Shown here piece by piece: positions 3,001-6,000 of a stretch of 7,960 nt of DNA. The stretch's first letter is position 1, and each line of letters opens with the position of its first letter. Position numbers: made by a program. This DNA is from a virus (taxonomy: Monodnaviria > Loebvirae > Hofneiviricota > Faserviricetes > Tubulavirales > Inoviridae): IMG/VR virus record IMGVR_UViG_2529292905_000001; one strand, written 5' to 3'.

Positions 3001-6000
3001 TTTCAGGGTGCGTAAAATGACGATGTTCAGCAATAAATGATTTCTTCTCAGCCGTCATATCCTTATCGCTACCGAAGATTCGCCATGCTTCATCAATAAC
3101 AATTAAATCACCAAACTGGCAAAAGCTCCCTTCCCCACCTTTAAAAGGAAAGAAATCTGCTTTAAGCACATCATCATTATCCACAACAATAATTTCTCCC
3201 GTTGCATCAGGATAACGTTCGGTGATTTTATCTTTTTGTAAACCATAAATGTTCGTCACAACTCTCCGGCCGCTGGTAAATGCCGGAATAATGACATTGC
3301 AAACGGCTTCATAACTTTTTCCTGAGCCGGGTATGCCAATATATGCAGAAATAGCCATAACTCACCCTATAACAGGAATACGTCGAATAATAAAACGAGT
3401 AGCCATTGCGGAGATAATCATACTAATCCCCTGTGGTAATTTACTCAGGTTAATGAAGTACCAGAATCCGTCTGATAAATTGGCAAACAGCGATGAGAGA
3501 TTGCTTGAATCTGGCAGTAACTCAACAAGGATTTCAACGAAGCCCTGGACTACAAAATACAGCGCAAAGAATACGACGAATTTAATAATCAATGACCGGA
3601 ATACAAAACCTAACAAAGTATTTAATGCACTAATCAGAATCCCAAACATAGTTGCACTCCTTTAGGCACTCAGAATAATACGGAGCGCAACAAATCCCCA
3701 TATAATCAGAAATATGGTTTCTACGGCGCTTCTGTTCTGCTCAATTAACGGACAATGGGAGTCAATTCTGTACTGGTGATTAAACACGCTGAATTCAACA
3801 ACGGGGCAGGATGCTGAACGAGAGCCGATGTTAAATTCGTTTGTAAAAGGCAACAAGTTAATAATTGGCGTTAAAATATCTCTTGCCGTTGGCGTTTCTT
3901 CAAGCTCAGGCTCTTTTACACCGGGATCTTCTCCCAAATCTATATTGCCATTATTTCCAGTGTCAGATCCTGAGTTGTTATTAATGGTAATATCAATATT
4001 GACGTCAGCCCCTGCACTGTCAGATACAGGTGAAAGCATATCTAATAACGTTGGAGATAGCCTAAGTTCCGACATCGCAGAAGTTACTTCAGCCGGTGAA
4101 ACCTCTTTAAACGGTAAGCCGTTATAATCGGCATTAACGGCAGCTTCAGACCACAGCTCGTTAATCATGTCGGCAAGAAGTGCTGGCGATACACTAACAC
4201 TATCAAGATACTCCAGATAATCAATCATGGACTCAATATTTCCGGCCTCCAGTACTTCCGTCATGGCTTTATATTTGGTATTGGTCCAGATAGTAAGCTC
4301 ACTCTTTTCATCAATATCTTTTGCGGTGTAATCCTCTTTTTCAGGAACGGCGCAAATCGTCGAATATCCACCATTTGACTGATTAGTCGTTTTACAAGGC
4401 GTGTTGTGATACTGATATTGCTTGCCTGCTGTTAAATAAGCAACGCTGTAATACATGGGAAGCCCTGCTACATTTTCATACATGGGAATACCTGCGGGAA
4501 ATGAAGATGCGGCCGGGTTGCTATACAAGTGTGTAATCTCAGGTATTTCATAAAATGAGGAAGGATAAGTAAACTTATAATTCTGTTCAGTAAAGGATAC
4601 ATCTCCATTACTGTTGACAACTTTATTCGTCACAGTGCGTTCAAAATTCGTTAGTGTTTCAGTATAAGTACGCGAGTTATAGTCATTAAGATAATTTCTG
4701 GCAATTTCAGTTGGATTATCACCATAGTAATAAATTAGCTCTTTCGAATCCTGATAATAATAAAGTGCATTATCTGGCGTGGAATATCCTGTTTCAACAC
4801 CTACAACTGGAGAACCCGCATCCACATTATTACGACTAACATGAAGGATTACCGGACTTAATTCCTGTGGTTCAGAATTAACGGTTATCGTCTTACTTTC
4901 ACCACTTTGACCACTGTACGTTACTTCATATAAATTATCGGAAATCTTTTTACCGTTAGTCATTACCATTACCGAGCCGTCAGATGAACTCAAAGAAGAC
5001 GGAACAAAAGATGATACAGCAGCAGCAATACCCGCCCACGTTGCGACACCGCTCATTTTGTATGATGAGGCAGCAGGCAAGTATTCGGCAGCATTAGCCG
5101 CAGCTCGGCCAACAAAAACACGGGTTGCTGTAAGCTGTGATGCCGTATAAATCGCATCATTGGCAGCAAAGCGACGAACAAGCACCCGGCCAACGACTTT
5201 AGGAATAACAGCCCGCGCAGCCACTGCTGCAATTGCTGGTACAAATGAATATGAATATCGGGGAAAGGAAACCCAGAGAAAGGAAAAAATAAAGGAATAA
5301 ACCGTCAGCCTCTTAGCCCAAGAATAACGACATAAGCTGAGACGATCCCCCATAAAAGGGAACCCAATTTCCATAATTCAATCTCCATAATAACCTCAAG
5401 TAAAACGGGCGATATTGCATCGCCCATGAATAATGAATTTATGCGGATTTAACGGTACGCAATACCCAGCGAACGCCAGCGACACCGGCATAAAGTGTTA
5501 CCAGTGAAGCAGCAACGGCCATAATCGCAACCAGAACTGTACTGAAATCAATGCTGTTCGTCAGCGGCGATAAATCAACACCACTTGATGCCGCTCCTTC
5601 TGCAGCGAAAGTCGCGCTAGAAACAGCCATTAATGCAGGTACAGCCAGAAAACTAACGATTTTTTTAAACATAACTCTATCTCCATTACATTTTAAAGGT
5701 TCGCATTCAAGCAGTACGAACCATCTTTATTACCTGTCCCACACCTACAGAAAAAAGCCAGAGCAGCAGGACAGAGCCAAAACCTAATGTCCAGTAATTT
5801 CCCATTGCAGAATAATCAATTTGATGAAATGGTTCAGAACGTACCATTATTGCCTGACATTCTTTTGCATTGTTCGCATTACATAAATAACCTTCAATAC
5901 GGTAACCATTTTCAGGAATATGATTATCAAACTGAATATCGAAACCTGATGTATCCATAATCAGCCTTTTATTTCAGTAATGCCGCCATCTGATGAAATG

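What the first reader, a model, noticed from the sequence alone, without database searches (positions are those of the whole stretch)
5707..5958. 83-aa Cys-containing membrane protein where pVII/pIX normally sit
Between the pV-position gene and the coat gene, Ff-type phages encode two peptides of about 30 aa. Here there is instead a single 83-aa ORF with a roughly 55-aa soluble N-domain (2 Cys) and one C-terminal TM helix. It could be a fused or divergent minor coat protein, or an unrelated membrane protein such as a superinfection-exclusion factor.
Basis: inference. Interest (0 to 1): 0.5.

Follow-up and report, generated by a model that had tools for sequence, protein, structure and literature searches.

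The report
Coat-like membrane protein of filamentous prophage
The 83-residue gene is real and conserved in a CUS-1/YpfΦ-type filamentous prophage of E. coli; its membrane helix resembles the phage's own major coat protein, so it is most likely a minor virion (end-cap) protein rather than a defence factor, though no experiment has shown this.

Summary
Window 5958-5707 (minus strand) encodes an 83-aa protein with two Cys (C26, C34) and one C-terminal membrane helix. It lies between the ssDNA-binding gene and the coat gene of a dif-integrated CUS-1/YpfΦ-type inovirus prophage.

The gene is under purifying selection (dN/dS 0.08-0.17). It belongs to an uncharacterised family (phrog_3679) spread across inoviruses of Gamma- and Betaproteobacteria. 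In every locus where the downstream gene could be read, it sits directly upstream of pVIII. It travels with the structural module while the replication genes upstream are exchanged.

Burkholderiales members link the family to Pf1 orf83 / Pf4 PA0722 (phrog_1147).

The new point is that the last 38 residues align end-to-end with the helix of the phage's own major coat protein (hhalign P 3.8e-4; 0 of 600 shuffles reach the score).

Predicted topology is N-out/C-in, with a Cys-bracketed hairpin outside and a basic tail inside.

Best reading: a pVIII-derived minor coat protein, probably at the leading end together with ORF27. This is inferred, not shown. Superinfection exclusion has no support.

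The parts
5707..5958 (-). ORF83 coding sequence (83 aa plus TGA stop). A member of phrog_3679; RefSeq calls it 'membrane protein'.
   Evidence: for the ORF. for phrog_3679 (E 1.1e-32). for dN/dS 0.08-0.17. for 98 E. coli genomes at 99% identity or more.
5818..5958 (-). N-terminal part, residues 1-47. Net charge about -5. Carries the near-invariant Cys pair C26 (5883-5881) and C34 (5859-5857). Predicted beta-hairpin at residues 19-41. Inferred to be periplasmic and then virion-exposed. This is the fast-evolving and exchangeable part.
   Evidence: AF2 with 25 sequences, strands 19-27 and 30-41, pLDDT about 70 in this part; the Cys are conserved in 90% or more of members; the N-part is net negative in 33 of 34 members, and 32 of 34 have two Cys; dN 0.18-0.25 here against 0.03-0.09 in the C-part; the N-part is replaced in the Salmonella relative P0019.
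5710..5823 (-). C-terminal 38 residues, Q46-A83. Contains the IDYS motif, the membrane helix and the basic tail KMVRTA. This is the coat-protein-like module.
   Evidence: helix 49-82, pLDDT 93-98; hhalign against the cognate pVIII family, score 23.9, P 3.8e-4, 37-38 columns, aligned C-terminus to C-terminus; 0 of 600 column shuffles reach the score; ungapped shuffle p of 2-4e-4 in three clades; the cognate pVIII is the best of 11 targets.
5961..6278 (-). ssDNA-binding protein gene (G5P type). Its TGA stop lies 2 nt before the ORF83 ATG.
   Evidence: PF17426, E 1.2e-52; for the sequence.
5439..5672 (-). Major coat protein pVIII gene (77 aa precursor with a signal peptide). It starts 35 nt downstream of ORF83.
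   Evidence: phrog_2186, E 1.1e-28; Phage_Coat_B, E 6.7e-4, below the Pfam cut-off; for the family alignment.
5405..5427 (-). Terminator-like hairpin (10 pairs followed by a T run) just after the pVIII stop. It would end the highly expressed pII-G5P-ORF83-pVIII unit, as the terminator after gene VIII does in Ff.
   Evidence: This is a consensus scan only. The number of such sites in the region equals the shuffle expectation, so the case rests on its position.
5305..5388 (-). ORF27, an unannotated 27-aa hydrophobic gene (MEIELWKLGSLLWGIVSAYVVILGLRG). It has a GAGG ribosome-binding site 5 nt upstream and overlaps the 5' end of the pIII reading frame. It is the candidate second small virion or membrane protein.
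   Evidence: found in 22 of 23 related loci with that interval, the exception (L024) being visibly rearranged; also in Burkholderiales and other genomes wherever the interval was held, except the Massilia locus L055, which ends right after the ORF83 homologue; dN/dS about 0.1 against L004 and no amino-acid change against L002; no Pfam or PHROG family; not annotated in RefSeq.
3662..5374 (-). pIII-like adsorption protein gene (phrog_3942). The true start is uncertain: ATG 5374 or 5353, or RefSeq's choice at 5224.
1089..3649 (-). The rest of the structural and assembly module that ORF83 is inherited with: pVI (DUF2523, 3649-3362), pI/Zot (3358-2333) and the pIV secretin (2333-1089).
   Evidence: for the Pfam matches; for synteny in all related loci.

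Best explanation
ORF83 most likely encodes a minor structural protein of the filamentous virion.

Shown by the analyses:
- It is a conserved, selected gene with no signal peptide.
- It has a net-acidic N-part carrying a conserved Cys pair, one long C-terminal helix and a basic tail.
- It always sits directly upstream of the major coat gene.
- It stays with the coat, adsorption and assembly genes while the replication genes upstream are exchanged.
- Its last 38 residues resemble the helix of the cognate major coat protein more than composition can explain.

Inferred from these facts:
- The protein inserts into the inner membrane N-out/C-in, like all inovirus capsid proteins before assembly.
- The two Cys form a periplasmic disulfide that closes a loop at the tip of a beta-hairpin.
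- During assembly at the pI/pIV machine, the coat-like helix packs into a pVIII-type helical lattice, with K78 and R81 facing the ssDNA.
- The roughly 47-residue N-part then decorates the outside of the particle.

The most likely site is the leading (first-extruded) end. pIII and pVI homologues already account for the trailing end. The phage has no pVII/pIX homologues. ORF83 and the 27-aa ORF27 are the only unassigned small membrane proteins in the structural module. In that case ORF83 would occupy pIX-like, coat-equivalent positions and help start pVIII polymerisation on the packaging signal.

The family probably arose from a duplicated coat gene whose signal peptide and exposed N-terminus were replaced by the Cys hairpin.
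For: **Real gene.** dN/dS is 0.08-0.17. It is present in 98 E. coli genomes at 99% identity or more.

**Linkage to the structural module.**
- The homologue is immediately upstream of pVIII in all 24 related loci. pIII, pVI and pI follow wherever the contig continues, and pIV follows in most of those.
- Only 4 of these 24 loci share the G5P gene, and one locus shares the pII gene.
- The same holds in 11 of 13 further genomes (Providencia, Scandinavium, Burkholderiales). The two exceptions are L055, whose contig ends, and L067, where no coat-like ORF was listed downstream.
- In Pf phages, PA0722 separates into lineages together with the structural genes PA0723-PA0726, whereas PA0720 and PA0721 do not (PMC7549136).

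**Coat-like helix.**
- Family-against-family hhalign gives score 23.9, P 3.8e-4, over 37-38 columns aligned C-terminus to C-terminus.
- Column-shuffled coat alignments average 10.3 (sd 2.5, maximum 21.1), and 0 of 600 reach the real score. The reversed alignment scores 9.4.
- A fixed-register, ungapped comparison of the last 38 residues gives p of 2-4e-4 in three separate clades.
- Among 11 targets, including other membrane segments of the same phages, the top hit of the Gammaproteobacterial family and of the Burkholderiales family is in each case its own clade's pVIII.
- Pf1 orf83 against the Pf1 coat gives p 0.001 over the last 30 residues.

**Topology.** The N-part is net negative in 33 of 34 members, the tail is usually +2, and 32 of 34 have two Cys. 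Longer members such as P0048 have gained an N-terminal signal peptide.

**Structure.** AF2 predicts a hairpin at 19-41 and a 34-residue helix at 49-82 with pLDDT 93-98. That helix is about the length of a whole pVII or pIX (33 and 32 aa).

**Fit with Ff biology.** Ff capsid proteins have their N-terminus outside and a positive C-terminus facing the DNA. pIX alternates with pVIII around the pVII bundle. Foreign domains are tolerated on the N-termini of pVII and pIX (PMC10175506).

**No other candidates.** ORF83 and ORF27 are the only unassigned small hydrophobic ORFs in the structural module.
Against: - There is no direct evidence that the protein is in the particle. I found no proteomic, genetic or structural data for this family or for PA0722. 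The 'gIX' label in the Pf4 literature is given without a supporting reference, so I take it to be positional.
- The coat similarity covers only 38 residues of a membrane helix. hhalign probability is only 36%, and in the Burkholderiales clade P is only 0.007.
- The similarity could reflect convergence on a shared membrane or assembly partner rather than co-assembly in the virion.
- Nucleotide identity between the two modules is 38%, so any duplication is ancient.
- In one Pseudomonas lineage the extreme C-termini of the two proteins do not match: ILRRMR against MLRKA.
- Moving a 47-residue N-part with three basic residues across the membrane without a signal peptide is plausible, but it is not shown here.
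- The AF2 strand register does not place C26 and C34 directly opposite each other, and pLDDT in that part is only about 70.
- The assignment to the leading end is by elimination only.
Confidence: 0.55

Rival explanations
1. ORF83 is an inner-membrane assembly factor that stays in the cell and does not enter the virion. Its coat-like helix would bind pVIII, or the pI/Zot complex, in the membrane. It could hold coat subunits ready, or recruit them to the export site.
For: The linkage to the structural and assembly module and the coat-like helix fit this reading as well as the virion reading. Helix-helix recognition in the membrane would also favour co-evolution with pVIII. Ff has a precedent for non-virion membrane assembly proteins (pI and pXI; PMC10175506).
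Against: An external disulfide-closed hairpin that diversifies and is exchanged between phages has no obvious role in a purely intramembrane chaperone. All other small N-out/C-in proteins of inoviruses with a basic C-terminal tail are capsid components. If neither ORF83 nor ORF27 is in the particle, the leading end has no candidate protein.
Confidence: 0.2
2. ORF83 is a superinfection-exclusion or host-modulating membrane protein, analogous to PfsE of Pf phages. It would block the receptor or entry route of related phages.
For: - PfsE (PA0721) is encoded in the same interval between the ssDNA-binding gene and the coat gene, and it excludes Pf by binding PilC (PMC8764522).
- A resident YpfΦ gives partial protection against superinfection (PMC4266046).
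- The N-part is variable and was swapped in a close relative while the helix stayed identical. That pattern is typical of specificity determinants.
Against: - There is no similarity to PfsE and no hit to any PADLOC defence model.
- In the Pf4 screen, every core gene PA0717-PA0728, including PA0722, was expressed alone, and only PA0721 and PA0724 gave resistance.
- The gene is strictly conserved next to pVIII across Gamma- and Betaproteobacteria and tracks the structural module. Accessory immunity genes usually do not behave this way.
- It is under purifying rather than diversifying selection in 3 of 4 comparisons.
- The coat-like helix has no explanation under this model.
- A double role, capsid protein plus exclusion as reported for PfsE and pIII, is not excluded.
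Confidence: 0.1
3. The ORF is not a functional protein-coding gene, being either a chance ORF or the decaying remnant of one.
For: Several genomes carry frameshifted or truncated versions. One truncated form (P0002) is seen on 278 contigs.
Against: dN/dS is 0.08-0.17 at high dS. Family members occur in two proteobacterial classes with conserved motifs and conserved position. The broken versions are explained by prophage decay.
Confidence: 0.01

Closest known systems
Pf1 orf83 / Pf4 PA0722 (phrog_1147). It is labelled 'gIX, minor capsid protein' in a Pf4 gene table (PMC12328805) and 'hypothetical protein' elsewhere (PMC7549136).
   Same: - It sits immediately upstream of the major coat gene and is the same size, 83 aa.
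- It has two Cys in the N-part, one C-terminal helix and a basic end.
- It segregates with the structural genes.
- Burkholderiales members of the ORF83 family match both phrog_3679 (8e-8) and phrog_1147 (9.7e-5).
- Direct profile-profile P values are 4e-4 to 9e-4.
- The C-terminus of Pf1 orf83 also resembles the Pf1 coat C-terminus.
   Different: Direct sequence similarity to the window protein is marginal, so the link is only transitive. In Pf1 the small peptide gene (orf30/PfsE) lies upstream of orf83, whereas here ORF27 lies downstream of pVIII. Pf phages have no pIV secretin gene of their own. The function of PA0722 has not been tested either, so the relationship does not transfer a known function.
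Ff (M13/f1/fd) minor coat proteins pVII and pIX, which form the leading 'round' tip.
   Same: - The gene position, between gene V and gene VIII.
- No signal peptide.
- An acidic outside and basic inside orientation.
- A helix of about 34 residues, the length of a whole pVII (33 aa) or pIX (32 aa).
- Ff tolerates extra domains on the N-termini of pVII and pIX (PMC10175506).
   Different: There is no detectable sequence relationship. ORF83 is 2.5 times longer and has an added disulfide-containing N-part. It is one gene at this position instead of two. Its helix resembles pVIII, which pVII and pIX do not.
Inovirus major coat protein pVIII of the same phage (phrog_2186; Pfam Phage_Coat_B-like).
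   Same: The last 38 residues align end-to-end. Shared features are the I-D-F/Y-S start of the helix, S..L-Y/W in the middle, and G-V/I...I/V-L-R/K-x-V-K/R-x-A at the end. Both have the same predicted topology, and the two genes are adjacent.
   Different: ORF83 has no cleavable signal peptide, and its exposed N-part is unrelated and much larger. Its helix is more aromatic. It scores no Pfam coat hit. Its ribosome-binding site is weaker (AAGG, against GGAG for pVIII), which fits a low-copy protein.
PfsE (PA0721) of Pf phages, a 30-aa superinfection-exclusion peptide.
   Same: It is encoded in the same interval between the ssDNA-binding gene and the coat gene of an integrative inovirus, and it is a small inner-membrane protein.
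   Different: ORF83 shows no similarity to PfsE. It is ORF27, not ORF83, that shows a weak resemblance (hhalign P 5.5e-4, z 3.4; one of 200 shuffles scored higher). The PfsE authors inferred an N-in orientation from tagging experiments, the opposite of what I predict for ORF83.

Membership tests
phrog_3679 (uncharacterised inovirus membrane protein family) | Significant match to the family profile over most of its length | tested here: met
   E 1.1e-32, residues 14-83 matched to profile positions 1-88 of 88. Distant members P0036 (2.4e-15) and a Burkholderiales protein (8e-8) match the same profile.
phrog_3679 (uncharacterised inovirus membrane protein family) | Family hallmarks derived here: two Cys in the N-part, a D-Y motif before the helix, W56, F60, G74, and a basic K/R-x-V-K/R-N-A end | tested here: met
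   C26, C34, D48, Y49, W56, F60, L66 and G74 are invariant or present in 90% or more of members. All are present in the window protein.
phrog_3679 (uncharacterised inovirus membrane protein family) | Gene immediately upstream of the major coat gene in an inovirus structural module | tested here: met
   24 of 24 loci; 11 of 13 further genomes; one contig ends, and in L067 no coat-like ORF was listed downstream. The window itself.
Pf1 orf83 / Pf4 PA0722 family (phrog_1147) | Sequence homology to the family | tested here: inconclusive
   The window protein does not hit phrog_1147. Profile-profile P is 8.5e-4 with probability 24%. The link is transitive: the Burkholderiales subfamily is 99.3% probable against the window's family, and one of its members hits phrog_1147 at 9.7e-5. 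hhalign of the Burkholderiales subfamily against Pf1 orf83 gives 76% probability, P 2.2e-5.
Pf1 orf83 / Pf4 PA0722 family (phrog_1147) | Position directly upstream of the coat gene, about 83 aa, a Cys pair in the N-part and a C-terminal helix with a basic end | tested here: met
Ff pVII (Pfam Inovirus_G7P families) | Match to a G7P profile | tested here: not met
   no G7P hit at E up to 1. The positive control, M13 pVII, hits PF19978 at 1.3e-21. hhalign against M13 pVII scores 8.7, which is background.
Ff pVII / pIX (functional class: leading-end cap proteins) | About 32-33 aa, consisting of a single helix only | tested here: not met
   ORF83 is 83 aa with an extra 47-residue N-part. The internal Met codons M38 and M52 have no good ribosome-binding site and are not conserved.
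Ff pVII / pIX (functional class: leading-end cap proteins) | No signal peptide, acidic N-side, basic C-terminus, and a gene located between gene V and gene VIII | tested here: met
   for the sequence features; for the position.
Ff pVII / pIX (functional class: leading-end cap proteins) | Physically present at the first-extruded end of the virion and required to start assembly on the packaging signal | not testable with these tools
   This needs virion proteomics, immunogold EM and deletion with complementation. I found no such data for this family, for YpfΦ/CUS-1 or for PA0722 in the library.
Inovirus major coat protein (pVIII, Phage_Coat_B-like) | A coat-type helix with a C-terminal basic DNA-binding tail | tested here: met
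   significant, clade-specific similarity to the cognate pVIII helix. The tail has two basic residues.
Inovirus major coat protein (pVIII, Phage_Coat_B-like) | Made as a precursor with a cleavable signal peptide and a short exposed N-terminus, and matching a coat profile | tested here: not met
   An in-frame stop 15 nt upstream of the ATG rules out a leader. There is no Pfam coat hit. The N-part is a 47-residue Cys hairpin.
PfsE-type superinfection-exclusion proteins and known defence proteins | Sequence relationship to PfsE or to a PADLOC model | tested here: not met
   no PADLOC hit. ORF83 lacks the PfsE YxWGW motif (sequences compared by eye).
PfsE-type superinfection-exclusion proteins and known defence proteins | Expression alone protects the cell from related phage | not testable with these tools
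   The only indirect evidence is that PA0722 was among the Pf4 genes expressed singly, and only PA0721 and PA0724 protected (PMC8764522).

The most novel reading that the evidence does not exclude
A large group of integrative inoviruses builds its leading end from different proteins than Ff does. The group would include CUS-1/YpfΦ of E. coli and Yersinia, relatives in Burkholderiales, and probably the Pf phages of Pseudomonas.

Instead of pVII/pIX homologues, these phages would use a duplicated and remodelled major coat protein (the ORF83 family) together with a peptide of about 27 aa (the ORF27 family). The disulfide-closed N-terminal hairpin of ORF83 would form an exposed, exchangeable tip module. 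That module could have a function of its own, for example opening the pIV secretin gate, adhesion, or exclusion.

If true, this would answer the question raised in bioRxiv 10.1101/2023.12.30.573655 of what replaces gVII/gIX in integrative filamentous phages.
Probability: 0.35. Interest if true: 0.65.

Novelty: new variant of a known kind. Interest (0 to 1): 0.5.

Why it matters
What forms the leading end of filamentous phages is known only for Ff. A 2023 preprint states that gVII and gIX are absent from integrative filamentous phages and that their leading end 'could be very different'.

These integrative phages matter for disease. The group includes CTXφ-like phages, YpfΦ of the plague bacillus, CUS-1 of neonatal-meningitis E. 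coli, and the Pf phages of Pseudomonas.

This analysis names two concrete, conserved candidates for the leading end (ORF83 and the unannotated ORF27). It gives a testable origin for one of them, a remodelled coat-protein duplicate. It also ties the enterobacterial gene to the equally uncharacterised Pf1 orf83 / PA0722.

If ORF83 is confirmed at the tip, its N-terminal hairpin would be a natural display site on these phages and a possible target for blocking particle production.

If ORF83 is not in the virion, the coat-like helix would point to a new type of assembly factor.

Tried and rejected
- **Phage DNA search.** The whole window has no megablast match in the GenBank phage collection. The phage was identified through E. 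coli genomes and the literature instead.
- **tblastn against phages.** ORF83 and a more typical family member hit only two uncultured inoviruses with hypothetical proteins.
- **Library scans.** Pfam, NCBIfam and PADLOC gave nothing for ORF83.
- **Structure searches.** Foldseek of the AF2 model against PDB and BFVD, and the family profile against PDB sequences, gave no match below E 0.001. A hairpin plus one helix is too simple to be informative.
- **Hits to large repeat proteins.** The all-protein profile search returned proteins of 547-4456 aa with many matched stretches. The five checked are unrelated beta-repeat proteins (SprB, InlB B-repeat, Big_5). I discarded all of these hits as summed weak hairpin matches.
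- **Genome scan with a degenerate DNA pattern.** Of 54 stretches, only 13 encode family members. The rest are chance matches.
- **ORF27 against M13 pVII and pIX.** Scores were at background level.
- **ORF27 against the 25-aa post-coat ORF of Pf phages.** Not significant (12.1 against a null of 9.3 ± 2.8), so this is a positional equivalence only.
- **Universal matching of the extreme C-terminus between ORF83-type and coat proteins.** Rejected, because one Pseudomonas lineage has ILRRMR against MLRKA.
- **Recent gene conversion between ORF83 and pVIII.** Rejected, because nucleotide identity is only 38%.
- **Internal starts at M38 or M52 giving a pVII/pIX-sized product.** Rejected, because there is no good ribosome-binding site and the Met residues are not conserved.
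- **Papers not available.** Gonzalez et al. 2002 (CUS-1) and Hay & Lithgow 2019 are not held in the library. I therefore could not check how the original CUS-1 paper labelled this ORF.
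Full report
**What the window is**

The window is a filamentous (inovirus) prophage on the minus strand.
- The gene order is: pII replication protein (7342-6290), G5P-type ssDNA-binding protein (6278-5961), ORF83 (5958-5707), major coat pVIII (5672-5439), a pIII-like protein (from about 5374 to 3662), pVI/DUF2523 (3649-3362), pI/Zot (3358-2333) and a pIV secretin (2333-1089). An HTH regulator is read divergently at 7514-7960.
- The window is 99.6% identical to prophages in E. coli chromosomes, often present as tandem copies.
- The ORF83 sequence is identical in strain UTI89.
- A perfect 28-bp E. coli dif site lies at 190-217.
- These features match the dif-integrated CUS-1/YpfΦ phages of E. 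coli O18:K1:H7 and Yersinia pestis described in PMC4266046. That review assigns gene modules but says nothing specific about this ORF.

**Checking the observation**

- An in-frame stop 15 nt upstream of the ATG rules out a longer form with a signal peptide.
- The G5P stop codon lies 2 nt before the ORF83 ATG, and the ribosome-binding site is weak (AAGG). This resembles the coupled, low-level translation of genes VII and IX in Ff (the Ff comparison is from my own knowledge).
- The gene is under purifying selection. Against relatives at 88%, 82% and 70% protein identity, dN/dS is 0.08, 0.17 and 0.09, with dS between 0.6 and 2.0.
- It is present in 98 of 5426 complete E. coli genomes, always at 99% identity or more.

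**The family and its genomic context**
- A word-indexed search found only close relatives.
- A full HMMER scan with a small alignment found 40 proteins. Among them are many of 65-147 aa that share a near-invariant Cys pair, a D-Y motif before the helix, W56, F60, G74, and the end K/R-x-V-K/R-N-A. None carries an informative name, and PHROGs lists the family (phrog_3679) as unknown function.
- In 24 related loci the homologue sits directly upstream of pVIII. Wherever the contig continues, pIII, pVI and pI follow, and pIV follows in most of those loci.
- Only four of these loci share the G5P gene, and one locus shares the pII gene. The gene therefore travels with the structural and assembly module, not with the replication module.
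- A pattern scan of genomes added Providencia, Scandinavium and ten Burkholderiales genomes. The homologue-then-pVIII order holds in 11 of these 13 loci. One contig ends at that point, and in L067 no coat-like ORF was listed downstream.
- The Gammaproteobacterial and Burkholderiales subfamilies are clearly homologous (hhalign probability 99.3%, E 1e-20).

**Structure and topology**
- With 25 sequences, AlphaFold2 predicts a beta-hairpin at residues 19-41 (pLDDT about 70) and a 34-residue helix at 49-82 (pLDDT 93-98).
- Across 34 members, the part before the helix is net negative in 33, the tail usually carries +2, and 32 have two Cys.
- Longer members such as P0048 have acquired an N-terminal signal peptide.
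- Together these features indicate an N-out/C-in orientation, with the Cys pair in the oxidising periplasm. This is an inference. The AF2 strand register does not place the two Cys opposite each other.
- Fold and PDB searches returned nothing useful.

**The main new result: the helix resembles the phage's own coat protein**

The last 38 residues of ORF83 (QIDYSAMGNYWTLGFGSVLLLWLFSVGVGQVIKMVRTA) align end-to-end with the last 38 residues of pVIII (SIDFSTVLVAIMAVAASLVTLYAGVAGVRWVLRTVKSA).
- Family-against-family hhalign gives score 23.9, P 3.8e-4, over 37-38 columns, C-terminus to C-terminus.
- This is not a composition effect. 600 column-shuffled coat alignments average 10.3 (sd 2.5, maximum 21.1). 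The reversed alignment scores 9.4.
- A fixed-register, ungapped comparison gives p of 2-4e-4 in three separate clades. Within-clade pairs score higher than cross-clade pairs.
- Among 11 targets, the best hit of each of the two ORF83 subfamilies is the pVIII of its own clade. The targets included the membrane segments of pVI, pIII and pI, the pIV leader, M13 pVIII, pVII and pIX, and the Pf1 coat.
- Nucleotide identity between the two modules is only 38%. The relationship is therefore old, or is maintained at the protein level, and is not recent gene conversion.
- The evidence is statistically sound but rests on a short segment. hhalign's own probability is 36%.

**Link to Pf phages**
- Pf1 has the order ssDNA-binding gene, orf30, orf83, coat gene, terminator, orf437. 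Pf1 orf83 is also 83 aa, with two Cys and a basic C-terminal helix.
- A Burkholderiales member of the ORF83 family hits both phrog_3679 (8e-8) and the Pf1 orf83 family phrog_1147 (9.7e-5).
- hhalign of the Burkholderiales subfamily against Pf1 orf83 gives 76% probability, P 2.2e-5. The profile-profile P values are 4e-4 to 9e-4.
- I therefore treat Pf1 orf83 / Pf4 PA0722 as a probable remote homologue.
- PA0722 is called 'hypothetical' in PMC7549136. That paper notes that it separates Pf lineages together with the structural genes. PMC12328805 labels it 'gIX, minor capsid protein' in a table without a supporting reference.
- I found no experiment that places PA0722 in the virion.
- In the Pf4 screen for exclusion factors, every core gene including PA0722 was expressed alone, and only PA0721 (PfsE) and PA0724 protected.

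- Between pVIII and pIII lies a 27-aa hydrophobic ORF at 5388-5305 (MEIELWKLGSLLWGIVSAYVVILGLRG). It has a GAGG ribosome-binding site and overlaps the start of the pIII frame.
- It is not annotated in RefSeq and has no Pfam or PHROG family.
- It is conserved, with consensus ..F.WGLLCAWAVI.GL.., in 22 of 23 related loci that hold that interval. The exception, L024, is visibly rearranged.
- It is also present in the Burkholderiales, Providencia and Scandinavium genomes wherever the interval was held, except the Massilia locus L055, which ends right after the ORF83 homologue.
- In the overlap, the ORF27 frame changes less than the pIII frame.
- It shows a weak resemblance to PfsE (P 5.5e-4, z 3.4; one of 200 shuffles scored higher).
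- A terminator-like hairpin at 5427-5405 follows pVIII, as in Ff and Pf1.
- ORF83 and ORF27 are the only unassigned small hydrophobic ORFs in the structural module.

**Interpretation**

All inovirus capsid proteins wait in the inner membrane with their positive C-termini inside. In f1, pIX alternates with pVIII around a pVII bundle at the leading tip, and N-terminal additions to pVII and pIX are tolerated (PMC10175506).

A protein that has a coat-like helix, a basic tail and an extra outside domain, is encoded next to pVIII, and is inherited with it, is most simply a minor coat protein. pIII and pVI homologues cover the trailing end, and there are no pVII/pIX homologues. The leading end is therefore the likely site, probably together with ORF27.

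This bears on an open question. A 2023 preprint states that gVII and gIX are missing from integrative filamentous phages and that their leading end may be very different.

The steps from 'coat-like and module-linked' to 'in the virion' to 'at the leading end' are inferences. I put about 0.55 on the first step and about 0.35-0.4 on the second.

The rival explanations are:
- a non-virion assembly factor (0.2);
- an exclusion or host-modulating protein (0.1). The variable, exchangeable N-part keeps this option alive, possibly as a second role;
- a non-gene, which is effectively excluded.

**Novelty and score**

The gene is annotated and the family is catalogued, but as unknown function. The new points are the coat-protein relationship, the link to Pf1 orf83 / PA0722, the strict linkage to the structural module, and the companion ORF27.

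I rate this a new variant of a known kind, namely an inovirus minor coat protein built in a different way. Interest is 0.5. It is a useful, testable lead on a real open question, but it is entirely computational and rests in part on a short alignment.

Noticed in passing
window 5305-5388 (minus strand): An unannotated 27-aa hydrophobic gene, ORF27, lies between pVIII and pIII and overlaps the 5' end of the pIII frame. It is conserved in relatives from Gamma- and Betaproteobacteria. It has no Pfam or PHROG family and is absent from the RefSeq annotation. It shows a weak resemblance to the Pf exclusion peptide PfsE.
   Followed up: yes
window 5224-5374 (minus strand): The start of the pIII-like gene is uncertain. 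The ORF opens at ATG 5374, which has a GGAG ribosome-binding site. RefSeq starts it at 5224. The PHROG profile aligns only from residue 28. The first 23 or so codons overlap ORF27 and change more than the ORF27 frame does.
   Followed up: partly
window 5405-5427 (minus strand): A terminator-like hairpin followed by a T run lies directly after the pVIII stop codon. Ff and Pf1 have a terminator at the same position. The ATG of the longer 40-aa version of ORF27 lies inside the hairpin stem.
   Followed up: partly
window 190-217 (minus strand); L001: A perfect 28-bp E. coli dif site marks the prophage end. In strain CUWW06 the prophage is present as a tandem repeat beside the ydeP-ydeR fimbrial region. 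The median is 2 copies of ORF83 per carrying genome.
   Followed up: partly
L004 2774-2899: A relative at 70% identity has an extra 41-aa acidic, non-membrane ORF (MIFIFPDGIAVFDDEYEAWMGEDYITVSEECYDVYGVNDGA) inserted between the G5P gene and the ORF83 homologue. It is absent from the window.
   Followed up: no
L002 / L003 (Salmonella enterica), ORF 6001-6255 in L002: This relative keeps the helix nearly unchanged: the last 28 residues differ only at G61S and T82N. Its N-part, however, is unrelated and has only one Cys. That N-part resembles the one in the distant member P0025. The same phage also has a different pII gene. This suggests the outside domain is exchanged as a module.
   Followed up: partly
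protein P0002; E. coli assemblies: A 93-aa variant is identical to ORF83 up to G74 and then diverges. It is recorded on 278 contigs. It is probably a widespread truncated prophage remnant or a rearrangement junction inside the gene.
   Followed up: no
plasmid records NZ_CP128883.1 (9,565 bp, E. coli) and NZ_CP132684.1 (248 kb, Klebsiella pneumoniae): An identical ORF83 occurs on a 9.6-kb record deposited as a plasmid, which is probably the replicative form of the phage. It also occurs on a large Klebsiella plasmid. Records of about 6.9 kb from E. coli and Leclercia carry distant homologues.
   Followed up: no
L083 (Pf1, NC_001331) 1073-1150: Pf1's annotated 'intergenic region' after the coat gene holds a 25-aa hydrophobic ORF (MLWSVWLGAFFAGAFITGYRTGEFF). 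It is conserved in two other Pseudomonas inovirus contigs (L084, L085), at the same position as ORF27. Its sequence similarity to ORF27 is not significant.
   Followed up: partly
window 358-606 and 752-1000 (minus strand): Two 82-aa ORFs lie between the secretin gene and dif. They are conserved in relatives, and RefSeq annotates them as hypothetical (one of them from an internal start, as a 65-aa product). The ORF at 358-606 matches phrog_6642 (unknown function). By position they are likely the equivalents of the unexplained YPO2280a and YPO2281 genes of YpfΦ.
   Followed up: no
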